A stretch of DNA of 64,000 nucleotides from Mobula hypostoma. Taxonomy: Eukaryota. The stretch spans positions 25,670,001 through 25,734,000 of the forward strand of contig NC_086097.1 of the NCBI RefSeq assembly GCF_963921235.1, written 5' to 3'. Within the stretch, counting starts at the first letter, position 1. Every line of letters starts with the position of its first letter. Below the pieces are notes generated by a model. That model worked only from the letters and a program-made list of their open reading frames with translations, searched no databases and had not been told where the DNA came from. The position numbers were made by a program, and so were the translations under genes. Positions 17,572-61,659 of this stretch are shown here, in pieces.

Positions 17572-18767
17572 ATAAGACCATAAGACAAAGGAGCAGAAGT
17601 CGGCCATTTGACCCATCGAGTCTGCTCCGCCATTTTATCATGAGCTGATCCATTCTCCCATTTAGTCCCACACCCCCGCCTTCTCACCATAACCTTTGAT
17701 GCCCTGGCTACTTAGATACCTATCAATCTCTGCCTTAAATACACCCAATGACTTGGCCTCCACTGCTGCCCATGGCAACAAATTCCATAGATTCACCACC
17801 CTCTGACTAAAAAAATGTCTTCGCATTTCTGATCTGAATGGGTGCCCTTCAATCCTTAAGTCATGCCCTCTTGTACTAGACTCCCCCATCATGGGAAACA
17901 ACTTTGCCACATCCACTCTGTCCATACCTTTCAACATTCGAAATGTTTCTGTGAGATCTCCCCTCATTCTTGTAAGCTCCAAGGAATACAGTCCAAGAGC
18001 AGACAAACATTGCTCATATGTTAACCCTCTCATTCCCGGAATCATTTTAGTGAATCTTCTCTGTACTCTCTCCAACGTCAGCACATCCTTTCTTAAATAA
18101 GGAGACCAAAACTGCCCACAGTACTCCAAGTCAGGTCTCACCAGCACTTTATAGAGCCTCAACATCACATCCCTGCTCCTATACTCTATTCCTCTAGAAA
18201 TGAATGCCAACATTGCATTCGCCTTCTTCACCACCGACTCAACCTGGAGGTTAACCTTAAGGGTATCCCATATGAGGACTCCCAAGTCCCATTGCATCTC
18301 AAAACTTTGAATTCTTTCCCCATTTAAATAATAGTCTGCCCGTTTATTTCTTCTGCCAAAGTGCATAACCATACACTTTCCAACATTGTATTTCATTTGC
18401 CACTTCTTTGCCCATTCTTCCAATCTATCCAAGTCTCTCTGCAGACTCTCCATTTCCTCAGCACTACCGGCCCCTCCACCTGTCTTCATATCGTCAGCAA
18501 ACTTAGCCACAAAGCCATCTATTCCATAATCCAAATCGTTGATGCACAATGTAAAAAGAAGTGGCCCCAACACTGACCCCTGTGGAACACCACTGGTAAC
18601 CGGCAGCCAACCAGAATAGGATCCCTTTATTCCCACTCTTTGTTTCCTGCCAATCAGCCAACACTCTATCTACATATGTAACTTTCCCATAATTCCATGA
18701 GCTCTTATCTTGTGGTATGTGTGGCACCTTGTCAAAGGCCTTCTGAAAATCCAAATATACAACATCC

Positions 18768-19142
18768 TCTCTCACTCTCCTTTTTCTCCCTCTGTCCCTC
18801 TGAATATACCTCTTGCCCATCCTCTGGGTCACCCCCCCCCGTCTTTCTTCCCGGACCTCCTGTCCCATGATCCTCTCGTATCCCCTTCTGCCTATCACCT
18901 GTCCAGCTCTCGGCCCTATCCCTCCCCCTCCTGTCTTCTCCTATCATTTTGCATCTCCCTCTCCCCCTCCAGCTTTCAAATCCCTTACTCACTCTTCCTT
19001 CAGTTAGTCCTGACGAAGGGTCTCAGCCTGAAACGTCGACTGCGCCTCTTCCTATAGATGCTGCTTGGCCTGCTGCGTTCACCAGCAACTTTGATGTGTG
19101 TTGCTTGAATTTCCAGCATCTGCAGAATTCCTGTTGTTTGTG
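18768..19142 (+). mobile_element. Penelope-derived short insertion with hammerhead motif
   Basis: 12-bp TSD tatacaacatcc at 18756-18767 and 19143-19154, inside the CR1 RT. Confidence 0.85.
19006..19041 (+). ncRNA. Minimal type I hammerhead ribozyme motif
   Basis: agtc-CTGACGA-a-gggtctcagcct-GAAA-cg-TC-gact; helix I agtc/gact; palindromic ACGT helix III. Confidence 0.75.
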
Positions 19143-20952
19143 TATACAACATCCACTTCATCTCCCTTGTCTAGCCTACTTGTAATTTCCTCAAAAAATT
19201 GTAATAGGTTTGTCAGGCAGGATTTTCCTTTAAGGAATCCATGCTGAGTTCTGCCTATCTTATCATATGCCTCCAGGTACTCTGTAACTTCATCCTTGAC
19301 AATCGACTCCCCAACAACTTCCCAACCACCGATGTCAAGCTGACAGGTCTATAATTTCCTTTTTGCTTCCTTGCCCCCTTCTTAAATAGCGGAGTGACAT
19401 TTGCAATCTTCCAGTCCTCCAGAACCATGCCAGGATCTATCGACTTTTGAAAGATCATCGCTAATGCCTCCGCAATCTCCACAGCTATTTCCTTCAGAAC
19501 ACGAGGGTGCATTCCATCTGGTCCAGGAGATTTATCTACCTTTAGACTATTCAGCTTCCTGAGTACTTTCTCTGTCGTAATTGTGACTGCGCACACTTCT
19601 CTTCCCTGTCACCCTTGAGTATCCGATATACTGCTGATGTCTTCCTCAGTGAAGACTGATGCAAAATACTCGTTCAGTTCCTCTGCCAACTCCTTATCGC
19701 CCATTACAATTTCTCCAGCATCATTTTCTATCAGTCCTATGTCTACTCTCACCTGTCTTTTGCTCTTTATATACTTGAAAAAGCTTTTAGTATCCTCTTT
19801 GATATTATCTGCTAGCTTCCTTTCATAGTTAATCTTTTCCCTCTTAATGACCTTCTTAGGTTCCTTTCGTAAGCTTTTAAAAACTTCCCAATCCTCTGTC
19901 TTCCCACTAATTTTTGCTTCCTTGTATGCCCTCTCCTTTGCTTTAATTTTGGCTTTGACTTCTCTTGTCAACCATGGTTGCATCCTTTTCCATTCGAAAA
20001 TTTCTTTTTTTGGAATATACCTGTCTTGCACCGTCCTCACTTCTCGCATAAACTCCAGCCACTGCTGCTCTGCCATCTTTCCCGCCAATGTCCCTTTCCA
20101 GTCAACTTTGGCCAGTTCCTCTCTCATGCCACTGTAATTTCCTTTACTCCACTGAAATGCCAACACATCAGATTTTGGCTTCTCTTTTTCAAATTTCACA
20201 GTGAACTCAATCATGTTATGATCACTGTCTCCTAAGGGTTCCTTCACCTCAATCTCTCTAATCACCTCTGGTTCATTACACAATACACAATCCAGTACAG
20301 CCGATCCCCTAGTGGGCTCAACAACAAGCTGTTCTAAAAAGCCATCTCGCAGACATTCTACAAATTCTCTCTCTTGAGATCCAGTGCCAACCTGATTTTC
20401 CCAATCCACTCGCATTTTAAAACCCCCACAATTATCATAACACTGCCCTTTTGACAAGACTTTTCTATTTCCTCTTGTAATTTGTAGTCCACATCAATGC
20501 AGCTGTTTGGAGGCCTATAAATAACTGCCATCAGGGTTCTTTTACCCCTGCAATTTCTTAGCTCAACCCATAAAGATTCTGCACCTTCTGATCCTATATC
20601 ACCTCTTTCTAATGATTTAATATCATTTCTTACCAGTAAAGCCACGCCTCCCCCTCTGCCTACCTTCCTATCCTTGCGATACACTGTGTATCCTTGGACG
20701 TTCAGCTCCCAGAGACATGCATCCTTTAGCCACGTCTCAGTGATGGCCACAATATCATACCTGCCAATCTGTAGCTGTATGACAAGATCATCCACTTTAT
20801 TCCTTATGCTGCGTGCATTTAAGTATAACACCTTAAGACCAGTATTTGCTACTTTTCGCTTTGATTTCACTGCAACTTTATTGCACTGCAACTCATCCCA
20901 ACGGCTACAAATTTGCCCCATCACCTGCCTGTCTTTCCTGACATCTTTACTG

Positions 20953-31245: not shown

Positions 31246-32065
31246 ACTTTATACTTTATTGTCGCCAAACAATTGATACTAGGACGTACAATCATCACAG
31301 CGATATTTGATTCTGCGCTTCCCGCTCCCTGGATTACAAATATTAAATACTAAAAGTATTTAAAATAGTAAAAATTAGTAAATATTAAAAATTTAAATTA
31401 TAAATCATAAATAGAAAATAGAAAAATAGAAAGTAAGGTAGTGCAAAAAAACCGAGAGGCAGGTCCGGATATTTGGAGGGTACGGCCCAGATCCAGGTCA
31501 GGATCCGTTCAGCAGTCTTATCACAGTTGGAAAGAAGCTGTTCCCAAATCTGACCATACGAGTCTTCAAGCTCCTGAGCCTTCTCCCAGAGGGAAGAGGG
31601 ATGAAAAGTGTGTTGGCTGGGTGGGTCGTGTCCTTGATTATCCTGGCAGCACTGCTCCAACAGCGTGCGGTGTAAAGTGAGTCCAAGGACGGAAGACTGG
31701 TTTGTGTGATGTGCTGCGCCGTGTTCACAATCTTCTGCAGCTTCTTTCAGTCTTGGACAGGACAACTTCCATATGGTGCATCTATAAAAATTAGTGAGGA
31801 TTTTAGGGGACAGGACAAATTTCTTTCGTTTTCTCAGGAAGTAAAGGCGCTGGTGGGCCTTCTTGGCAATGAACTCTGCTCGGTTGGACCAAGTCAGGCC
31901 ACTTGTGATATTGACCCTGAGGAACTTAAAGCTTTTGACCTGTTCCACCTGCGCACCACCGATGTAAATTGGGTCGTGCGGTCCGCTACTCCTTCTGAAG
32001 TCAACAACCAATTCCTTCGTCTTGCTGACATTGAGGGATAGGTTATTGTCTTCGCACCATGCCAC
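31246..32065 (-). mobile_element. Rex1/Babar 3' fragment inserted in a further Penelope arm (31110-31245 and 32066-32525)
   Basis: [30 protein letters not shown]. Confidence 0.85.
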
Positions 32066-32964
32066 CATAAGAAGGTGGAGGGAGGGAAAGAAGTACAATT
32101 TGGCAAGTGGTAGGTGAAACCAGGTGAGGGGGAGGCAGGTGGGTTGGTAGGGGAGGGGTGAAATAGGAAGCTGGGAGGTGAAGGGTTGAAGAAGGAATCT
32201 GATGGGAGAGAGGACACTGGACCATGGAAGAAAGGCAAGGAGGAGAGGCACCAGAGAGTGGTGATAGGTAGGCGAGAAGAGAAGAGATAGAGGGAAGAGA
32301 GGAGCTAGAATGGGGACTGAAAATAAAAATAGAGAAGTGGGAGAGAAATGACCAGAAGTTAGAGAAATTGATGTTGATGGCATCAGATTGGAAACTACTC
32401 AGATGAAATAAGACGTTGCTCTTCCAATCAAAATGTGAACTCATCATAGCAGTAGAGGCAGCCAGGGACCAACATGTTGGAAAGGGAATGGGAAGTCAAA
32501 TTAAAATGGGTGGTCACCGGGAAATCATACTCCACTTTAATTATATAAAAAAACAATGGCAGATCAGCCAGATCTGTACACCATTGGTGGAGAGATTTTG
32601 CTTGTGGTATACTGGGCTAAATCCATAACTTCCTGGAGATTTTTCCTGAGCATTCCTATACCCATGCTAAGTCATGATACAACCAGTTAGGATATTACAT
32701 AATACCGTGAACTTGCCTATATGTCTCCATAAAGGGATATTCGGCAAGGACTGGGAGGGCTGGAGGACTATGCTATGATACTCTATGACTCTATAGCAAT
32801 GGATAGAGGGTAGTCAGATCTACCGGTTTAGGATTTCCAGAAAGCATTTACTAAGATACCATATAATGAACCACCCTTGAAACAGTGTGTAAAGCTTTAG
32901 GTTTCCTTACAGCATTGGAACTAATTTATTCTTGGAATTGCAACTTTCTTAATGTGTAAGTTGT

Positions 32965-33270: not shown

Positions 33271-34510
33271 ATTTACAAAGAGGAGAAGTGATCTTATTGA
33301 AACAACAGCTTCTGCCAAAAGACAGTCCTATCTGGTAGAGAACCTAGAGCTAGGGTGGCAGTTTTAAAAGGGACTGCTCGGTTAAAATAAAGATGAGACA
33401 GTACTTATTTTTTCCCAGGGCCATGAATCTTTGGAATATCCTGTTGTAGTGAAAAGTAAATCCAATTCAAAGTAATACAATGATGAAACAGAATGACACA
33501 TCCAAAATGCCAGAGGAATGCAGCAAGTTGGGCAGCATCTATGGAAAGGAATAAACAGTCAAATGTTTCAGGTCAAAACCTTTATCCAAATTGGAAAGGA
33601 AGGGGGAAAGAGGCCAGTATAAGGTAGTGGAGGCGAGGGAGGGGGAAGGAGTACAAGATGGCAGGTGATACATGAAGTCAGGTGAGGGGGAAAGTGATAA
33701 GTGGAAAAGGTAAAAGGCTAAAGGAGAAGGAATCTATTAGGAGATGAAAATGACCATGGGAGAAAGGGAAGGAGGAAGCGCACCAGATGGTGGTGATAGA
33801 CAAGTAAGGAGAAGAGGTAAGAGGGGAGCCACAGTGGGGAATGGAAGAAGAGGGAAGGGAAAGCGGGGGGAAACTGATTTGATGAAACAGATGTTTTTTT
33901 TTTGTTTTCACTTTGCTCTGTCATAAGTAAGTAGAAGAGTAAAGCCAAAGTTATGGTTATATACAATGTCAGAACCAGGTCGAACGGCATAATGACCAAC
34001 TCCTGCTCCTATTTATGTGGGTTCTAGGACCAAATAGTTTTAAGATACATAACGGAATTGTATAACAGGCTTGAATGTCTTTCTTTTTCTATGTTTCTTG
34101 TGCATTCTCCAGGCAAGCAATCAGATCTCTCAACGTTTGATTGAGAGATAAAGCTCTTAACAAACCATTTCAGCAGGCAAAGTTTTCAGTCATCTCATGT
34201 CCTCACTGGGGGAATCAGAGGTGGAGGAAGTCAACAATGTTTAATTCCTCGCTGTCATCATTACAAGCTACATTAATTTTGACCAACATGAAAAAGCTCC
34301 ATTTAGATTCTAATTAGTATCTACAACATTTAATGAAGAACAGAAATTCTTGGTTTATTTTCCCCTAGTATGGACACTTAAAAATTGAACTGCAAACAAC
34401 ATTCAACCTGACAGCACCCTTGAACTCAAACAGCCTGAGATTCACAGCAACACACATAAAATGCTGGGGGGAGGGGAGAGATCAGTGAATCAAACAGGAA
34501 TAAACAATCA

Positions 34511-34730
34511 ACACACATCAAAGTTGCTGGTGAACGCAGCAGGCCAGACAGCATCTATAGGAAGAGGCGCAGTCGACGTTTCAGGCCGAGACCCTTCGTC
34601 CTGACGAAGGGTCTCGGCCTGAAACGTCGACTGCGCCTCTTCCTATAGATGCTGTCTGGCCTGCTGCGTTCACCAGCAACTTTGATGTGTGTTGCTTGAA
34701 TTTCCAGCATCTGCAGAATTCCTGTTGTTT
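34511..34730 (+). mobile_element. Fold-back Penelope-derived mini element with hammerhead motif (core 34601-34628)
   Basis: Perfect ~90-bp inverted arms around a 2-nt spacer (34601-34602); TSD aggaataaacaatca(aca) at 34496 and 34731. Confidence 0.88.
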
Positions 34731-34939
34731 AGGAATAAACAATCAACATTTTGGACCGAGTTCCTTCATTCACTATGCACAAGTGTGAAGGGAATGGCTG
34801 TTTACAGTGGCAAATGGGCTGCTAATCAAATGGGCTAACTTGTTCTGCATGGAACTGAGCTCAACAGTTATTGGATCTGAATTTCATCTAGTCAAATGCA
34901 AGTATTCTGTCATGCTTCTAGACTTCTGATAGAAAGACT

Positions 34940-37455
34940 TGGTTATCCTGTCCCTTTCTTTAACAACTATATCAATTAAGTTTTGTAGTTCTTCCTCTGT
35001 ACTTGCAACTAACACAGTGTCATCTGCATATCTGAAATTATTGATGTTTTCACCGCCAATTTTGATTCCCAAGATGTCTCTTATTTTTTGTAATATTGTT
35101 TCACGGTACACATTAAATAAATCAGGGGAGAAAACACACCATTGATATAGTTGTTGAAGAAAGTGCAAAAATGGGTCTATCTATCAATTGCAAAAAGACA
35201 GAATGTATGGTGATACAGGTGTCCCCCGCTTTTCGAACGTTCGCTTTACAAAACCTCACTGTTATTAGTACCCTGTTTTCGCTTTCAGAAGGTGTTTCCA
35301 CTATTATGAAGAAAGGCAGCGCGCTATAAAAAATCAGCGCGCGCCCCGAGCAGCCGCTCTCCCCAGATTCGGAACTACATTCTCGCTGGCATGGCTTAAA
35401 CACGTGCCTGTGAGCAGGCGTTAGCAAGATGAGTTCTGAGGTATTGGAAAAGCCTAAAAGAGCTCGTAAGGGTGTTACACTTAGCGTAAAACAAGACATA
35501 ATTCAGCGTTTCGATCGTGGTGAGCGAAGCAAGGACAAAGTGAGTTTGGCTTGTGGAAGCTGACGAAGGTGATGTTGAAGAGGTTTTGGCATCCCATGAC
35601 CAAGAACTGATAGATGAAGAGCTGATGCAATTGGAAGAGGAAAGGATAACAATCGAAACCGAATGCAGTAGCGAAAATGAAGCAACTACGTGAGATTTTC
35701 GCTGCAATGATAAAGTACGACTTTAATTTTGAAAGGGTACGTAGGTTTAGGGGATATTTGCAGGATGGTTTGAGTGCTTACAAAGAACTGTATGATAGAA
35801 AAATGTGCGAGGCTCAGCAGTCAAGCAAGCCTTCCACATCAGCCACAGCAGACAACGAACTTCGACCTTCGACATCGAGGCGGGCAGTCATAGGAGAAGA
35901 TGAGCTGCCTGCCCTGATCGACGATGAGATGACACCCCCGTGTCCCACCACCCCAACCCCCGGGCCCCGGACAGACACTGTACCAATTCGCAGAGAATGC
36001 AGCAGTAGCCGGGAGGCACACAGCACATCTTTAAGAAAAAAGCCGAAATAAACATGCTAATTAATTAGGTGCCACCTAGCACATAATTGTCGGCCCAGAT
36101 CAGAGGTGATGCAATCGGCAATCGCCTCTGATCTGCGCCGACATTTACATGCTGGGCAGCACCTAATTAATTAGCATGTTTATTTCGGCTTTTTTCTTAA
36201 AGATGTGCTGTGTGCCTCCCGGCAACAACTGTGTTCTTCGCGGAAATGTATTGCTCGGCGGCCCAGAGGGTTGGGGCCACTGCACCACCCCAACCTGCGA
36301 CAACTCAGTCTAACACATCATCATCAGTGTGCTCAGCGCTGTTTTCCCAATTCTGGTAAGCGATACTACACTGTACATACACTATTTCTACTTTATATTG
36401 GCTGTGTATTTTTACATGTTATTGGGTAGATTTGGCAGCTTTATAGTTTAAAGGTTACTGGAGAGCATATTTATGCCAATAGCGCTTGTGTGAGATTTTC
36501 TGCCGAGAGCGCTTGCATGAGATTTTTGCTACGGAGATCTGTGCAGGCAATCGTTGCAGAGAAGTATTTCTACTTTATATAGGCTGTGTATTTATCATAT
36601 CATTCCTGCTTTTACTATATGTTACTGTTATTTTAGGTTTTATGTGTTATTTTGCATGATTTGGTAGGTTATTTTTGGGTCTGCGAACGCTCACAAAATT
36701 TTCCCATAGAAGTAAATGGTAATTGCTTCTTCGCTTTACGACATTCTGGCTTACGAACCGTTTCACAGGAACGCTCTACCTTCGGATAGCGGGGGAAACC
36801 TGTATTCAAAAAGAAGGAGAATCTGATCTGTAGGCTGAGAATAAACGGGAAAGACATAAAACAAGTACAGAACTTTTGCTACTTGGGAAGCTGGGAGACA
36901 TCAGATGGCAGGTGCGACATGGACATCAAAAGAAGAATAGGGATGGCAAAGGACACCTTTACGAGAATGAAGAGTACACTGACCAATACTAAACTAGGCA
37001 TGACAACCCACCTCAGAGTACTGAAATGTTACTTTATCCAGTAATATGGCTCAGAATGCTGGACAATATCTAGTAACATGAGGAAACGAATTGTAGCAGC
37101 AGAGATGTGGTTTTTGAGGAGGATACAAAGAATATCATGGACGAAACGAATATCTAACGAGGATGTCATGAACACAGCAAACACAAAAAGAGAAATAATG
37201 TATGAGATCATGAAAAGGCAACATAACTTCTTTGGACATGTGATTAGGAAAGAGGAGTTAGAATGTACGGTAATTAAGGGAAAGATTGAAGGGAAGAAAG
37301 CAAGAGGAAGACAAAGACAAATGATGATGGAGACAGCAGCCAGAGAACTGGAAATGAATACCAATGAATTGATCCACTTGACCCGAAACAGGAGTGTGTG
37401 GGCCATGGCAGTCAAAGCTCAAACTGGGCACGGCACCTGATGACGATGATGATGG
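34940..37455 (+). mobile_element. 5'-truncated RTE-clade LINE with inverted 5' piece (34940-35142), split by a Tigger-like element
   Basis: NNFRYADDTVL on minus; YGSECWT, AAEMWFLRR, FFGHVIR on plus; (GAT)n tail. Confidence 0.85.
35216..36802 (+). mobile_element. Internally deleted Tigger/pogo-like DNA transposon
   Basis: TA TSDs; TIRs caggtgtcccccgct / agcgggggaaacctg; N-terminal KRARKGVTLSVKQDIIQRFDRGE joined to an acidic C-terminal remnant; no DDD domain seen. Confidence 0.82.
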
Positions 37456-39630: not shown

Positions 39631-39926
39631 GACCTACTGAGCTTCCCCAGCAGTTTGCACATGCTGCTTAAGATTTCCAACATCTGCAGAATCTCTTGTG
39701 TTTATGAGCCAGAGTCTCCCAACTGATCTGGTTTTTCATTCACCCTGCAAGGACACACTAGAGTCCACCTGCCTATCATTCCTATGCAATACTTTAATTA
39801 TTTTTAAAAATAGGGATCGAAATTCTTCAACAATAATACCAAGATGATAGATTAATAATCAATTTCAGTTGAATATACCCAAAATGAAAATTAATTGAAC
39901 CAATAGAAAGCTATTCCTGAGTAATA

Positions 39927-48001: not shown

Positions 48002-48250
48002 CTCTTCCCCATTCCCATTTCCCTCTCTCACCTCATCTCCTTGACTGCCCATCACCTCCTTCTAGTGTTCCTACCCCCTTTTCTCTCTTCCATGGACTTC
48101 TGTCTTCTCCTATAAGATTCCCCCTTTTCCAGCCCTGTATCTCTTTCACCAATCAACTTCCCAGCTAGAGGGCTACAGGTAAGCCCAGTAATTTCTAAGG
48201 TAGGGACATGTTCGGCACAACTTTGTGGGCCAAAGGGCCTGTATTGTGCT

Positions 48251-48481
48251 AACAAGAGGAATTCTGCAGATGCTGGAAATTCAAGCAACACACATCAAAG
48301 TTGCTGGTGAACGCAGCAGGCCAGGCAGCATCTCTAGGAAGAGGTACAGTTGACGTTTCAGGCCGAGACCCTTCGTCAGGGTGCAGTCCTGACGAAGGGT
48401 CTCGGCCTGAAACGTCGACTGTACCTCTTCCTAGAGATGTTGCCTGGCTTGCTGCGTTCACCAGCAACTTTGATGTGTGTT
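48251..48481. mobile_element. Fold-back Penelope-derived mini element with head-to-head hammerhead cores
   Basis: ~95-bp inverted arms with a 7-nt spacer; TSD gcctgtattgtgct at 48237-48250 and 48482-48495. Confidence 0.88.
48383..48422 (+). ncRNA. Minimal type I hammerhead ribozyme motif
   Basis: gcagtc-CTGACGA-a-gggtctcggcct-GAAA-cg-TC-gactgt; 6-bp helix I. Confidence 0.78.
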
Positions 48482-50143
48482 GCCTGTATTGTGCTGTAAG
48501 TTTTCTATGTTTCTATGTTTCCCAGCTCTTTACTTCATCTCTATCCCTCTCATTTTCACCTTTTTTGTGTTTTTCTCTCTCTCCTCCCCCCACCTTTTAA
48601 ATTTACTCATCTTTTTTTTCCTCCAGTCCTGCCGAAGGGTCTAGGTCAACTGTTTATTCATTTCCATAGATGCTGCCTGGCTTGCTGAGTTTCTCCAGCA
48701 TTTTGTGTGTGTTACTTGGATTTCCAGCATCTTCAGACTTTCTCTTGTTTACAGCAGATGCACAAGGTTGAATGGGATTCGGGATCAGCCATAATGGAAG
48801 TACAGAGCAGACTCGATGGGCTGAATAGCCTAATTCTGCTCCTATGTCTTATGGCTCTAATTATGAGTCAGGTAGATTTTTCTCTCATTGAGTCATACAG
48901 CATAAAAACAGGCCCTTCGGTCTATCACATCTACATCATCATTAAGCACAAATCTGCACTAAAACCATTTGATAAGTACAACTAATAAAGGCCAACACCC
49001 TTCAACATCAATTAGTTTGTATTTTGAAAGGTTTCCACTTACAAGGTCCAATCCCCAGATACCTGACTTGGCATGGCCATTCACTACCTACCTTTATTGT
49101 GTGGTGCTGATCCAGTGTGGGCATCGAATAAGGGCTCATTATGCTCCTCCAGCCTAAACAGCCCATGCTGATCAGTTACACCGATGTGACCAATTACCTA
49201 TTAATCCATACATCTTTGGAATGTGGGAGGAAAACAGAGCTTGCAGAATAAAGCCACATGGTCACAGGGAAAATGTACTCCTTACAAACAGCAGCAGAAA
49301 TGAACCCAGTCATGGGCACTATAATAGCGTTACATTATGCTACTGGTTTACTACTTATCAGCAGCAAATAAAACAAAGCATACAACTAAATGCTTTATTA
49401 ATAACACTTTTTCCTAGTCAAATTTATGGTAAACGATCACCGCAAAGAATGGAGAGGCGGTCGGAGGCAAGGAAGAGTTGAGGGTCAAAGCGAGCGATGA
49501 CAAGGCTGTCGAAGATCAAAGCAAGCAGGTGCGAGGCAAAATCAAGGTGAGGTCAAGGCAGATTCAAGGCAAACGGAGGTGAAGCAAACTCAGGGCAAGC
49601 AGAGACAAGGAAGAGTTGAGGCCTATTCATCTAAACCAAGGGTGAGGTTTGATTGAACTAAACGCCAGACTGATTTGCAAAGTATTGGAGCAACAATGCC
49701 CAGATCCTAGAGCCAGGAATGACCCGTTGGTTGGACAATTTAAACGCAACGCCAGATTGAAAAGGGAAGATGTTGGGACCAGAGGCGAGGGTCAGGCCAG
49801 TTCTGCTCGCTATTCCACGACGTTTACTCAGCTCAGCGGTGAACTGAGGCTGAGGCCTGCCCTGGGCTTTGTGTCTGTGGACTCACTTTCATTCTGAATG
49901 CTTTTTGTTTACTTTCATTGCTTGCGCAATTTGTTTTTTGCATCTTTTTCCTCTCTACATTGGGTGTTTGATAGTCTTCTTATTTTTATGGGTTCTTTTG
50001 TGGCTGCCTGTAAGGAGATGAATCTCAAGGTTGTATAATACATACATACATACATACTTCAGTAATAAATGTACTTTGTACTGCTCAATAGTTAACAATC
50101 TAACTAAATTAAATATTCAAAATAAAATCTCTTGGACCTTGTA

Positions 50144-58925: not shown

Positions 58926-61659
58926 GGATGCAGAAATATTCACAAGGAGTTTACAAGGACTAGAATACTTAAGTTATAAAGAGAAACTAGTAAAATGGGG
59001 CTATTCCCAAGCAAGAGAAAATCTGCAGATGCTGGAAATCCGAACAATACCCGAAACTTCAACTGTACTTTTTTCCTATATGCTGCCTGTCCTGCCGAGT
59101 TCCTCCAGCATTTTTGTGAGTTCTGCTAAGATGGGGCTATTTTCCTTAAGATGAAGGAGACTGGGGGATGACCCAATAGAGGTCTATAAAACCCATGAGG
59201 GACAGTGTGAAGGTTACAGTGTTTCTCCCTTGTGGTAGTGGAGTCCAAAACTTCAGGGCATAGCTTTAAGATGAGAGGGGAAGATTTTCCCCTCCCACAC
59301 ACACTCACAAAAGGTGGTGAATATATGAAATGAGCTGCCAGAGGAAGTGGTAGAGACAGATAGAATTATAACATTTAAAAGACATTCAGACAGACAGGTA
59401 CATCAATAGGAAAGGTTAGAGGGCCAAGCTCAAGCAAATAGGACACGCTCAGGTAAACAACGTTGTTTGTTTTTGTGCTTTATAACCCTCTGACACTACT
59501 AGAATGAATCGACACTCAGTAGGGGAGCTCAAAAAAGGATATCAGTGGAATATTAGTGGAAGTGACAACAAACATAATTAGGAAGCCAAAGAGGAATTAA
59601 ATTAAAATATCAAAAGAACGAAGTATTCCACTGGCACCCACATGTCAAAAAGAAATAAAGATGAAACAGGCATAATAAATAATGAGCAAATTAAATGATT
59701 TAAATGGGAATTACAAAAGATTCTGTGGTCCTTTCTAAACAGAGTGCAACTGACAACAGTTTAAACTAAGGACTGAACTTTTTTCTGGTTCAGAAAGAAA
59801 ATATTATACAACTCAAAACAAGTCAAATTTAAGGATAACAGAAATTAGAAAAACAAAAAGGTGCCAGACAACTGGAGTTTAGCAAATGTACCTACTATTT
59901 TAAGTCGCCAATTAATCAAGGGAACACAAGAGCTCTTTTAGGTACGATAAACACTGGAGTCCATGCAAGAATATGAACAAAACATCCAAGGAGGTTCAAT
60001 ATAATGAAGTCAACAGAGCTCAGAAAGGAAAAGCATTTTCAGGCAACATTGAATATTTGTAATAGGAACATAAAGTATAGACAAATACAACACATATGAC
60101 AAGTGGCCTTTTGTAAGAGACAAACTTTAAAAAAGTATATTAGGGTTGACTTGCCAACATCAAATGACAGTATAGTCAGATTAACAGACTGTTCAGCCCA
60201 TTGAGTCCATGCCAACAATCAACCGCCATTTACAATAATCCTACATTCATCTTGTTTTTTCATTCTCCCCACATTCTCATCAATGGCCCCAATTCCTACC
60301 ACTCACCTACATAGCAGCACCAATTCACAGTGGACAACTAACTTTACAACTCAGCAGTTACAGGGAGAATGTGCCTGCAACTGAATGTGCCACATTGGTG
60401 CTCAGAGTTTAACTTGGGTATCTCGCATTACAAGACAAGGGCTCTATTAGGTGTGGCAATAAACTTTCTACAAATTTACAACCGAAGATTGAGAAGCAGG
60501 TTCTGATTTAGCATGGATAAACAATAAATTATGTGAATTGTGGATAGAACATCAGTGTCAGCTCTGATATCCCAAAATATCATCTGGCCAGTTAGAGTCC
60601 AGAACACTGCCACTGTGAGTGATAAATGGCAGAGGGAAAAACTGACACTAAACAAACTAAATTATAAACGAGAAACTCAAAGAAAAAGTCATGATGGGGA
60701 AAAAATTCTAACTAATGTACCATCAATGAAGTTGCTGACAGTGGAGTATTGATAAGAAGTCTATCGCTAGGAAAAGCATTGATAAATGCAGAATCTGGTT
60801 AAGGTTTTGTTTGGAAATATGAGAATGAGCAGGGGTCAGGCAAATAACTACTTAATATTCAATATTATGGCAGATTCTTCCACTTATCATCAACCATTTT
60901 CACCATTTGATCACCATTAACCCATTCCCTTAATGTCCAAATACCTATTGAACCCAGTTTTGAATAGTCTCAATGACTGACCAAACACAACTTAAGTACA
61001 ACAAATTTACAACCCCCCATGTAATTTCTCCATATTTCATTCCCAGTTTGCCAATCCCTCATCCTGTGACTGTACCCTAAACTCTAGATCCTACAACTAA
61101 AATTTGGAGGGTAGTACAACTACTATCCTCCAAATCTCTCTTTGAATCTGTGTACCTCAACGAATTTACCTTGGGTGTTCTTAAAATTCAGTGAATATGG
61201 GTCAACGCAAACACGAGGAAATCTGCAGATGCTGAAAATTCAAGCAACACAGGGTCTCAGCCTGAAACGTCGACTGTGCTTCTTCCTATGGATGCTGCCT
61301 GGCCTGCTGTGTTCCACCAGCATTTTGAATATGGGTCAATACTACTTGATCTCTTAAAGACAAGTGCTACATTTCAATGCTGCACCAAAATATCTCTTGA
61401 GGGCAGCACAGTTGCATAGCAGTTATCGTAATGCTTTACACCACCAGCAATCACAATCAAGGTTCAATTCCCACCGCTGTCTGTATGGGTTTCTACCAGG
61501 TCCTCTGATTTCGCCTACATTCCAGATGTTGTACAGGTTATCGTTAGTAAAGTTCTGGGAATGCTACACTGATACTAGAAGCATAGCTGCCCCCAGCACA
61601 TCCTCAGTCTGTGTCGGTCACTGGTGCAAGTAGCACATTTCACTGTGTGTTTCAATGTA

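What the first reader, a model, noticed from the sequence alone, without database searches (positions are those of the whole stretch)
34496..34748. Fold-back mini-retroelement made almost entirely of a hammerhead ribozyme and its mirror image
Seen: a ~220-bp insertion with a 15-18 bp TSD and two perfectly complementary ~90-bp arms. The symmetry axis falls on the first two bases of a CTGACGA...GAAA-cg-TC core. Both arms share a variant (ccagacagc/gctgtctgg) absent from the 48251 copy, so one arm appears copied from the other. Known: Penelope-like elements carry minimal type I hammerheads in their pseudo-LTRs and often insert with an inverted terminal repeat. Inference: a non-coding, ribozyme-centred mobile hairpin, or a stereotyped insertion product whose fold-back point is set by the ribozyme structure. 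I do not know of a description of this in elasmobranchs.
Basis: partly seen in the sequence, partly recalled or inferred. Interest (0 to 1): 0.78.

Follow-up and report, generated by a model that had tools for sequence, protein, structure and literature searches.

The report
Head-to-head Penelope-like retroelement insertion stub
The hairpin is a short, dead insertion left by a very abundant Penelope-like retrotransposon, made of two back-to-back DNA copies of the element's ribozyme-bearing end, and it is an ordinary product of how these elements insert.

Summary
An 18-bp target duplication flanks a 217-bp insert with two 87-nt arms that are 100% complementary. The axis lies on the C-T of a CTGACGA...GAAA-CG-TC minimal hammerhead motif, and the right arm carries a 41-nt extra tail.

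It is not a self-propagating hairpin element. The parent is a Penelope-like element (PLE): a ~900-aa RT plus GIY-YIG ORF, a CT-rich UTR, the hammerhead and a tail. A 26-mer of it occurs 67,900 times in this 3.48-Gb genome.

In a position-ordered sample, 32 head-to-head pairs stood beside 63 unpaired arms. Of the pairs, 29 of 32 join one arm with the tail to one arm without it, and none is tail-to-tail. Arm lengths are often very unequal. Subfamily variants are mirrored in both arms.

This fits two cDNAs primed on the two target strands from the two adjacent PLE start sites (Frangieh 2024). Inverted 5'-truncated copies and a one-sided 30-40-bp tail are textbook PLE features (Craig 2021).

The fold-back point is not fixed. 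It is enriched at -7..+3 relative to CTGACGA: 20 of 64 fold-back arms against 5 of 63 unpaired arms. The exact junction of this copy occurs at 471 loci. Why the stop sits at the ribozyme's 5' edge is unresolved. A fixed RNA 5' end at -4 found no support in 5 full-length copies. Low to moderate interest.

The parts
34496..34513 (.). Left copy of the 18-bp target-site duplication (AT-rich)
   Evidence: Exact direct repeat with 34731-34748. Twenty-nine of 30 sister copies have their own, different duplication of 10-18 bp, median 14, 67% A+T (the 30th, L010, was mis-called by my script).
34514..34600 (-). Inverted arm: a copy of element positions about +2 to +88 (C of CTGACGA = 0). It starts at the proximal start site and lacks the tail (P-type arm).
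   Evidence: 0 mismatches in 87 nt against the reverse complement of 34603-34689. BLAST to the parent reference gives +97..-6. The outer end lies at ..GTGTG(TTGC), as in the other fold-backs.
34601..34689 (+). Primary arm in sense orientation, from the C of CTGACGA to the proximal start-site region
   Evidence: reference -6..+129 together with the tail.
34598..34633 (+). Minimal type I hammerhead motif. Remnant of helix I 5' strand GTC (34598-34600); CTGACGA (34601-34607); extra A plus helix II/loop GGGTCTCGGCCT (34608-34620); GAAA (34621-34624); CG-T-C with the predicted cleavage after C34628; helix I 3' strand GACTG (34629-33).
   Evidence: Read directly. It matches the min-HHR features listed in PMC4209133 (passages read). 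No Rfam hammerhead model matched.
34690..34730 (+). Tail: 41 nt present on one arm only, lying between the proximal and the distal reverse-transcription start sites
   Evidence: In the sample, 3' ends cluster at +84..+114 (62 arms) or +122..+148 (60 arms). The tail concept comes from PMC8557442 and PMC11167929.
34731..34748 (.). Right copy of the target-site duplication
48251..48483 (-). Second, older fold-back of the same family. The tail-bearing arm is on the left. The two 95-nt arms differ at 3 positions. A 9-nt spacer GGTGCAGTC lies at 48380-48388. The 12-bp duplication CTGTATTGTGCT lies at 48239-48250 and 48484-48495.
18756..19143 (+). Simple 5'-truncated copy (not a fold-back) of the same family: CT-rich UTR, hammerhead motif, tail. 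It shows the parental sequence cagttagtc upstream of CTGACGA.
   Evidence: reference -262..+133, 94% identity.

Best explanation
The insert is a dead-on-arrival product of target-primed reverse transcription by an abundant Penelope-like element (PLE).

Proposed sequence of events:
1. The element's GIY-YIG endonuclease cut both strands of an AT-rich target about 18 bp apart.
2. One target strand primed a cDNA at the distal start site. This gave the arm with the 41-nt tail, 34601-34730.
3. The other strand primed a cDNA at the proximal start site about 40 nt upstream. This gave the tail-less inverted arm, 34514-34600.
4. Both cDNAs were copied from the same RNA, or from RNAs of one source copy. 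Each ran only about 90-130 nt, through the hammerhead motif, and stopped within 3 nt upstream of CUGACGA.
5. Their 3' ends were joined head to head. The parental mini-palindrome GUC-CU-GAC offers 3 nt of self-complementarity there.
6. Fill-in and repair produced the perfect palindrome and the target duplication.

The product has no ORF. In a transcript its ribozyme motif would be locked in an 86-bp duplex. It does not propagate as a hairpin.

Shown here: the family, the parent, the pairing rule, the mirrored variants, the variable junctions and the hot spot.
Inferred: priming on both strands, use of one RNA, microhomology joining, and the reason for the stop.
For: Family and parent.
- All 40 scored genome hits (of 887 candidates) to the 217-bp insert are full-length at 98-100% identity.
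- The exact 24-nt junction occurs at 236+235 = 471 loci.
- A 26-mer of the arm occurs 34,024+33,876 times.
- Longer copies continue upstream into a CT-rich UTR and an ORF. The ORF has a YIDD polymerase motif, a Cys/His cluster and LYIGET..R..EH. Pfam gives RVT_1 E 5.7e-6 and GIY-YIG E 1e-3.
- Many copies keep open frames of about 900 aa.

Pairing rule. The sample is the first 100 anchor places.
- There are 32 head-to-head pairs.
- 29 are tail arm plus tail-less arm, 3 are tail arm plus a short arm, 0 tail+tail and 0 tail-less+tail-less.
- There are 0 tail-to-tail pairs.
- 49 of 50 fold-backs have a tail on exactly one side.

Independent cDNAs. Inner ends of the two arms often differ widely, for example -775/+85, -878/-30 and -2/-319.

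Same source. At four subfamily-diagnostic sites the minor allele is in both arms versus one arm in 12/6, 20/3, 26/3 and 19/1 copies. Arm-versus-arm divergence is 5.45% within copies and 10.5% between copies.

Independent insertions. Twenty-nine of 30 sister copies have different 10-18-bp duplications, 67% A+T, and variable 3' ends (..GTTGT to ..TTTGCGTT).

Published mechanism.
- Recombinant anole PLE protein cleaves and extends both target strands. It starts reverse transcription at two adjacent internal sites. The tail is the stretch between them. Hammerhead mutants do not change insertion (PMC11167929, main text read).
- An inverted 5'-truncated copy and a one-sided 30-40-bp tail are standard PLE features (PMC8557442, passages).
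Against: - Nothing here shows directly that two strands primed. For this perfectly symmetric copy, a single cDNA that snapped back on itself gives the same sequence.
- Both Pfam hits are below the curated cut-offs: 26.6 against 29.6 bits, and 19.8 against 22.6 bits.
- No PDB relative was found for the RT part.
- The reason for the stop at -3 is not explained by this model alone.
- A fixed RNA 5' end at -4 found no support. In 5 full-length copies the upstream repeat begins at -74, -113, -172 and beyond -454 (twice).
- The samples rest on exact 17-26-mers and on the first 3.8 to 31 Mb of one contig. They favour young copies and one region.
Confidence: 0.78

Rival explanations
1. Snap-back. A single cDNA primed at the distal site reached the region just upstream of CUGACGA. 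It folded back on its own GTC..GAC mini-palindrome and copied itself until blocked near the proximal site.
For: - This copy is perfectly symmetric: 0 mismatches in 87 nt.
- The parent carries GTC-CT-GAC exactly at the axis.
- In the unbiased sample, 6 of 32 head-to-head pairs are symmetric (both inner ends equal).
- The junctions mostly show 1-5 nt of overlap.
Against: - Many fold-backs have arms of very different length, which self-copying cannot give.
- Self-copying predicts that the second arm runs on into the tail and the target. Instead the second arm ends at the proximal site in 29 of 32 pairs.
- In vitro both strands are extended (PMC11167929).
Confidence: 0.12
2. A self-propagating non-coding hairpin element. 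The whole fold-back is transcribed and retrotransposed as a unit, mobilised in trans by the PLE, with the ribozyme at its centre.
For: - 471 loci share the exact junction.
- 40 of 40 scored hits are full length at 98-100% identity.
- Two copies (L014, L020) share one unmirrored C>T change in the right arm.
Against: - Three subfamily markers are mirrored in both arms of the copies that carry them. Unit copying would need paired mutations each time.
- The same subfamilies occur in non-fold-back copies.
- Left arms end at the proximal start site flush with each copy's own duplication, not in a shared source flank.
- The junction class is about a tenth of the fold-backs of similar size: 471 against 4,608. 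It comes with the loop in both orientations relative to the tail.
- In a hairpin transcript the ribozyme is buried in a -193 kcal/mol stem.
Confidence: 0.05
3. The stop is not set by microhomology or chance. The arm ends cluster there because the folded hammerhead, or the protein bound to it, halts the telomerase-related reverse transcriptase, so the ribozyme sets the fold-back point.
For: - Inner ends in -7..+3: 23 of 122 arms, 2.1 per nt. This compares with about 0.5 per nt at +4..+36 and about 1 per nt at -30..-8. The binomial p is 7e-5 within -30..+36.
- 20 of 64 fold-back arms against 5 of 63 unpaired arms, Fisher p 0.0014.
- In the 6 fold-backs of 144-145 nt whose long arm could have ended anywhere, it ends at -1 or -2 in 6 of 6.
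- Simple insertions with their duplication flush at -3 or -4 exist (L136, L154, L035).
Against: - Ends are spread from -30 to +3 and beyond, not at one base.
- One copy with the same junction (L051) has CTGACTA, a changed G8, in both arms. If its source carried that change, catalysis is not needed.
- In the anole PLE, hammerhead mutants did not change insertion products (PMC11167929).
- By the time the enzyme reaches -3 it has already unwound the motif.
- The GTC/GAC self-complementarity gives a simpler reason for the exact axis.
Confidence: 0.2
4. A DNA-transposon-type miniature inverted-repeat element, or an assembly artefact.
For: Long terminal inverted repeats and a flanking direct repeat.
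Against: - Duplication length varies from 10 to 18 bp between copies.
- One end carries a 41-nt non-inverted tail.
- The arms are the 3' end of an RT-encoding element.
- Hundreds of loci on many contigs have different flanks.
- Contigs of four public runs carry opposite-strand joints in the same element.
Confidence: 0.01

Closest known systems
Penelope-like elements (EN+ PLEs: Penelope/Poseidon-type organisation) and their usual insertion forms
   Same: - A single ORF of about 900 aa with reverse transcriptase followed by a C-terminal GIY-YIG nuclease.
- Repeated UTR (pseudo-LTR) carrying a minimal hammerhead.
- Heavy 5' truncation.
- An inverted 5'-truncated copy abutting the insertion.
- A 30-40-bp tail at one end only.
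- Variable target duplications in AT-rich DNA.
Sources; PMC8557442 passages.
   Different: Nothing in kind. Here both copies are extremely short (about 90 and 130 nt), so the product looks like a free-standing hairpin. Clade assignment by RT phylogeny was not done.
PAc (Poseidon of Anolis carolinensis) in vitro insertion (Frangieh et al. 2024, PMC11167929)
   Same: - Two adjacent internal reverse-transcription start sites with the tail between them.
- Both target strands cleaved and extended.
- AT-rich targets.
- The hammerhead lies just upstream of the start sites, near the ORF start. In a full-length copy here the long frame opens at about +88.
   Different: - That work was done in vitro with a reptile element. 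The main text I read does not describe head-to-head genomic hairpins or a stop at the hammerhead's 5' edge.
- Here the predicted cut site lies about 60 nt upstream of the ATG rather than 26 nt inside the ORF.
Minimal PLE hammerheads (Cervera and de la Pena 2014, PMC4209133)
   Same: - CUGANGA and GAAA boxes.
- No helix III, only the palindromic C15.2-G16.2 (ACGU).
- A short helix I of 4-5 bp.
- An extra nucleotide after A9.
   Different: - Helix II is short here: about 4 pairs, two of them G.U in the commoner variant. The schistosome families have 7-8 bp.
- 10.1-11.1 is G.U in the 39,897-copy variant and G-C in the 6,207-copy variant.
- Self-cleavage is untested.
L1 5' inversions by twin priming
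   Same: The second target strand primes internally on the RNA and gives an inverted 5' segment joined to the 3' segment by microhomology.
   Different: - In L1 the inverted part comes from upstream of the direct part and the internal priming site is not fixed. Here both arms cover the same stretch and the second start site is fixed.
Animal non-LTR retrozymes (tandem hammerhead repeats; bioRxiv 10.64898/2026.07.22.740005, abstract and passages read)
   Same: Non-coding, hammerhead-bearing derivatives of PLE pseudo-LTRs. They are reported in one cartilaginous fish genome among 31 vertebrates.
   Different: Retrozymes are head-to-tail tandem arrays thought to spread through circular RNA. This is a single head-to-head pair with a target duplication. 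No tandem array was seen here.

Membership tests
Penelope-like element (EN+) | One ORF with reverse transcriptase followed by a C-terminal GIY-YIG endonuclease | tested here: met
   The L031 380-aa frame holds YIDD, then a Cys/His cluster, then LYIGET..R..EH. RVT_1 scores E 5.7e-6 (26.6 bits) and GIY-YIG E 1e-3 (19.8 bits), both under Pfam's curated cut-offs. Open frames of about 900 aa occur in many copies. Atlas neighbours carry HTH_animal, GIY-YIG and RVT_1 (a lead only).
Penelope-like element (EN+) | Pseudo-LTR: a partial upstream copy of the 3' region in front of full-length ORFs | tested here: met
   Upstream partial copies start at -74, -113, -172 and beyond -454 (twice) in 5 of the 11 full-length candidates examined. 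Two more have an inverted copy there. Four gave no match at the expected place.
Penelope-like element (EN+) | Inverted 5'-truncated copy abutting the insertion, and a 30-40-bp tail at one end only | tested here: met
   32 head-to-head pairs against 0 tail-to-tail pairs. 29 of 32 pair a tail arm with a tail-less arm. The two classes of 3' end lie about 30-45 nt apart.
Penelope-like element (EN+) | RT groups with PLE/telomerase RTs in a phylogeny | not tested
   No tree was built and no named homologues were fetched. The PDB sequence search found nothing at E<=1.
Hammerhead ribozyme, minimal type I (PLE type) | Conserved core CUGANGA ... GAAA ... N-U-H in type I order | tested here: met
   CTGACGA at 34601-07, GAAA at 34621-24 and GTC at 34626-28. 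The 31-nt core is exact at 39,897 places, plus 6,207 for the C11.1 variant.
Hammerhead ribozyme, minimal type I (PLE type) | Helices I and II supported by pairing and covariation | tested here: inconclusive
   Helix I in the parent is AGUC(U)/GACU(G), 4-5 pairs. Only GUC/GAC remains in the fold-back. Helix II has about 4 pairs. The only subfamily change seen, U/C at 11.1, keeps a pair with G10.1. It is one-sided and lies at a CpG.
Hammerhead ribozyme, minimal type I (PLE type) | Match to a curated covariance model | tested here: not met
   There was no Rfam hammerhead hit at gathering score in the window. There was none at E<=10 around the fold-back or around the simple copy. This is expected for motifs without helix III, but it is a miss.
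Hammerhead ribozyme, minimal type I (PLE type) | Self-cleavage after H17 | not testable with these tools
   No excess of arm ends at the predicted cut: ends at +25..+36 are 5 of 122.
Self-mobilising fold-back / hairpin retroelement | Hairpin inherited as a unit, seen as arm-specific differences shared between copies | tested here: not met
   Subfamily sites are mirrored in both arms. Only one shared unmirrored site that is not at a CpG was seen, in 2 of 30 copies.

The most novel reading that the evidence does not exclude
The excess of cDNA ends within a few bases 5' of CUGACGA, seen mainly in head-to-head pairs, would mean that the hammerhead with its bound protein acts as a template-boundary-like stop for this telomerase-related reverse transcriptase. 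It would bring the two nascent cDNA ends of a dimeric particle together. On this reading the ribozyme fold, not its cleavage, shapes PLE insertion products in vivo.
Probability: 0.15. Interest if true: 0.6.

Novelty: new member of a known kind. Interest (0 to 1): 0.27.

Why it matters
By itself the locus is ordinary repeat debris. Its value is as a footprint.

This genome holds thousands of such hairpins. There are 4,608 fold-backs within one 31-nt size class alone. About one insertion event in three is a head-to-head pair in the sample (32 pairs against 63 unpaired arms).

They obey a strict rule of one arm with the tail and one arm without. That is the in vivo pattern expected if PLEs prime on both target strands from two start sites, as seen in vitro for a reptile element.

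The hot spot at the ribozyme's 5' edge gives PLE workers a concrete, testable feature.

Perfect 87-bp palindromes are also candidate sources of double-stranded RNA. Penelope inverted copies give siRNAs in Drosophila (PMC3681739, passages read). They are also a known difficulty for assembly and repeat annotation.

Tried and rejected
- Rfam. There was no hammerhead or other ribozyme hit. The only hit was a sub-threshold mir-3926 match (52 against 82 bits), caused by the hairpin.
I repeated it with 17-mers.
- RNA evidence. No RNA holder was listed. The four runs laid are contigs only, so they cannot show RNA starts, ends or strand. They did show loose ends and joints at L031 position 2993 (= -4) and opposite-strand joints. 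I treat these as presence only.
- Idea: short copies end at a transcription start at -4 (TTAGTCC resembles an initiator, from my recall). Rejected as a general explanation. In 5 full-length copies the upstream repeat begins at -74, -113, -172 and beyond -454 (twice), never at -4.
- Idea: a 3' splice site at the CT-rich tract/TTAG. Simple copies ending at -3/-4 abut their target duplication directly, with no shared upstream exon.
- Idea: ends at the predicted ribozyme cut (+29). No peak there.
- The PDB sequence search of the RT part found nothing.
- Earlier-findings look-up: nothing near.
- The TSD script mis-called L010 (42 nt). That row was dropped from the length range.
Smaller stretches were fetched instead. 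Of the 11 full-length candidates looked at, 4 gave no match at the expected place, probably because my offset estimate was off or the copy lacks the upstream repeat.
Full report
**1. What is there**

Window 34496-34748 holds an exact 18-bp direct repeat (34496-34513 and 34731-34748). It flanks a 217-bp insert.

The insert has three parts:
- an 87-nt arm (34514-34600);
- a CT dinucleotide (34601-34602);
- the perfect reverse complement of the arm (34603-34689, 0 mismatches in 87), followed by 41 nt with no inverted counterpart (34690-34730).

The repeat finder's 96-nt arms include 9 nt of the target duplication with one mismatch at 34508. That is chance similarity between target and element.

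The CT is the start of CTGACGA. It is followed by AGGGTCTCGGCCT, GAAA and CGTC.

As RNA the insert folds into an 86-bp stem: -192.9 kcal/mol, z -26.5.

**2. It is one of a very large family**

The assembly is held: 3.48 Gb in 200 contigs.
- The 217-bp insert finds 40 of 40 scored hits (887 candidates) that are full length and 98-100% identical, on many contigs.
- Twenty-nine of 30 fetched copies have their own target duplication of 10-18 bp (median 14, 67% A+T). The 30th, L010, was mis-called by my script.
- Their 3' ends vary from ..GTTGT to ..GTTTGCGTT, and the outer end of the left arm varies by a few bases around GCAAC.
- The exact 24-nt junction occurs at 236+235 = 471 loci.
- A 26-mer from the arm occurs 34,024+33,876 times.
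- The 31-nt hammerhead core occurs 39,897 times, and a one-base variant (CCCGAAAC) 6,207 times.

Different flanks at hundreds of loci rule out an assembly artefact or a segmental duplication.

**3. The parent is a Penelope-like element**

Longer copies continue upstream of CTGACGA through about 300 nt of CT-rich sequence into an ORF. The ORF ends ..NIDFSNFR and contains YIDD, a Cys/His cluster and LYIGET..R..EH.

Pfam gives RVT_1 (E 5.7e-6) and GIY-YIG (E 1e-3). Both are below the curated cut-offs.

Many copies keep open frames of about 900 aa.

Of 11 full-length candidates examined:
- in 5, a partial upstream copy of the 3' region precedes the ORF, starting at -74, -113, -172 or beyond -454 (twice);
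- 2 have an inverted copy there;
- 4 gave no match at the expected place.

In one full-length copy the long frame opens inside the module, with an ATG at about +88 relative to the C of CTGACGA. So the hammerhead and the two 3'-end sites sit just before and at the start of the ORF. This is as described for the anole element PAc (PMC11167929, main text read).

RT plus C-terminal GIY-YIG, pseudo-LTRs and a hammerhead in the repeat are the defining organisation of EN+ PLEs (PMC8557442, passages).

**4. Fold-backs are a regular product and follow a rule**

I took the first 100 places of the 26-mer (the first 3.84 Mb of contig C1) as a sample not chosen by junction. I fetched all of them and aligned them to a 1.1-kb parental reference in which C of CTGACGA = 0.

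Arms and their 3' ends:
- The sample holds 122 arms.
- Their 3' ends fall into two classes: +84..+114 (62 arms, "P") and +122..+148 (60 arms, "T", with the tail).

Pairing:
- There are 32 head-to-head pairs and 63 unpaired arms.
- Of the pairs, 29 are P+T and 3 are T plus a short or degraded arm. None is T+T and none is P+P.
- There are no tail-to-tail pairs.

Of 50 fold-backs taken from a genome-wide pattern search (4,608 loci with total length 141-171 nt), 49 have a tail on exactly one side.

Arm lengths are often very unequal, for example -775/+85, -878/-30 and -2/-319. So the second arm is not simply a copy of the first.

The window itself holds further examples:
- 48251-48483;
- 59008-59116 and 61204-61328, whose tail arm is little more than the tail.

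**5. Both arms come from one source**

At the four subfamily-diagnostic sites in the 50-copy set, the minor allele is in both arms versus one arm in 12/6, 20/3, 26/3 and 19/1 copies. Rare changes are almost always in one arm only.

| Set | Arm vs arm within copies | Arm vs arm between copies |
|---|---|---|
| 50-copy set | 5.45% | 10.5% |
| 28 usable of the 30 near-identical sister copies | 0.77% | 1.39% |

The window copy's variant ccagacagc/gctgtctgg is one more mirrored variant. The hairpin is therefore regenerated at each insertion from a single-sense template. It is not inherited as a hairpin.

**6. Mechanism**

The published in vitro behaviour of a PLE protein fits these footprints:
- it cleaves and extends both target strands;
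- it starts reverse transcription at two adjacent internal sites;
- the tail is the stretch between the two sites;
- the protein is predicted to be a dimer (PMC11167929).

I therefore read 34601-34730 as the cDNA started at the distal site on one strand. I read 34514-34600 as the cDNA started at the proximal site on the other strand. Both were copied from one RNA, or from RNAs of one source copy. Both ended within 3 nt upstream of CUGACGA and were joined head to head.

The parent reads ..GTC CT GAC.. at that place. So 3 nt of self-complementarity are available, and the true switch point is ambiguous over about 8 nt.

A single-cDNA snap-back cannot be excluded for this symmetric copy. It does not explain the P+T rule or the asymmetric pairs.

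**7. Is the fold-back point set by the ribozyme?**

It is not uniquely set.
- In the 50-copy set, total lengths run from 143 to 171 with modes at 144 (5 copies), 158 (6) and 162 (7).
- Only 3 copies have this copy's junction with the CT loop on the tail side, and 2 have the same palindrome with the loop the other way.
- Many junctions carry 1-5 nt of overlap or a few filler bases.
- In the unbiased sample, fold-backs occur from +85 to beyond -900.

There is nevertheless a real hot spot.
- 23 of 122 arm ends lie in -7..+3, or 2.1 per nt. The rate is about 1 per nt at -30..-8, about 0.5 per nt at +4..+36, and 0.03 per nt beyond -100. The binomial p is 7e-5 within -30..+36.
- The excess is carried by fold-back arms: 20 of 64, against 5 of 63 unpaired arms, Fisher p 0.0014.
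- In the 6 fold-backs of 144-145 nt whose long arm could have ended anywhere, it ends at -1 or -2 in all 6.
- Simple insertions whose duplication abuts -3 or -4 also exist.

I tested two explanations and found no support for either.
- A fixed RNA 5' end at -4: the upstream repeats of the 5 full-length copies start well upstream of it.
- Ribozyme cleavage: there is no peak at +29.

One copy with this junction has CTGACTA in both arms (L051). In the anole element, hammerhead mutants did not change insertion. Catalysis is therefore unlikely to matter.

A structural or protein-bound stop at the motif remains possible but is untested.

**8. The ribozyme motif**

The motif has CUGANGA, GAAA and GUC in type I order. 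It has no helix III beyond the palindromic ACGU, a helix I of 4-5 pairs in the parent, and an extra A after A9. These are the traits listed for minimal PLE hammerheads (PMC4209133, passages).

Helix II is short. No Rfam model matched. The only subfamily change in a helix is one-sided and lies at a CpG. Activity is untested.

In the fold-back, only the plus strand keeps the core. A transcript of it would be locked in the long stem.

**9. Verdict**

"Mobile ribozyme hairpin" is not supported. "Insertion by-product of a PLE" is supported.

The architecture is already described for PLEs. The one preprint I found that covers cartilaginous fish concerns tandem retrozymes, not hairpins. My three literature searches turned up no description of a stop at the hammerhead's 5' edge. 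Supplements of these papers were not read and may bear on this.

The surroundings are repeat-rich. Other PLE pieces and LINE-type RT fragments lie on both strands within 3 kb. Nothing suggests a host function for this copy.

Noticed in passing
window 48380-48388 (inside the fold-back 48251-48483): The 9-nt spacer GGTGCAGTC differs from the usual parental cagttagtc. It would pair over 9 positions with GACTGTACC just after the predicted cleavage site, giving a much longer helix I than in ordinary copies. Its origin is unknown. It could be a subfamily variant or a templated patch from the other strand.
   Followed up: partly
window 59008-59116 and 61204-61328; also loci L102, L143, L155, L157: These are head-to-head pairs in which the tail-bearing arm is only about 40-70 nt, little more than the tail, and stops near the proximal start site. 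This looks like a second stopping place for the distal cDNA. It would explain tails seen at the 'wrong' end of PLE copies.
   Followed up: partly
whole genome: Many copies of the parent keep open frames of roughly 900 aa at 96-97% identity to each other, and 125,599 first-look candidates were reported. The family looks recently active and very large.
   Followed up: no
L161 positions 520-800: In a full-length copy the long ORF frame opens inside the hammerhead-tail module (ATG at about +88, present only in the GTATGT subfamily). The tail therefore encodes the first codons of the protein.
   Followed up: partly
L031 2669-2993: Contigs of three of the four laid runs (X1, X5, X19) join the end of the ORF directly to -4, skipping the whole CT-rich UTR (about 310-330 nt). 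Similarity between subfamilies also resumes at -4. This may be a UTR-less variant or a related family.
   Followed up: no
window 31385-32531 and 34884-35180, minus strand: There are old PLE ORF remnants (..ININFSNFW) and LINE-type reverse-transcriptase fragments (YADD motif) within 3 kb of the finding. The neighbourhood is nested repeats.
   Followed up: no
L075 and L040: These junctions have short stutters, for example GACGAAGGG copied once and then the arm restarted at TCCTGACGAAGGG. This suggests repeated template switching at the same spot.
   Followed up: no
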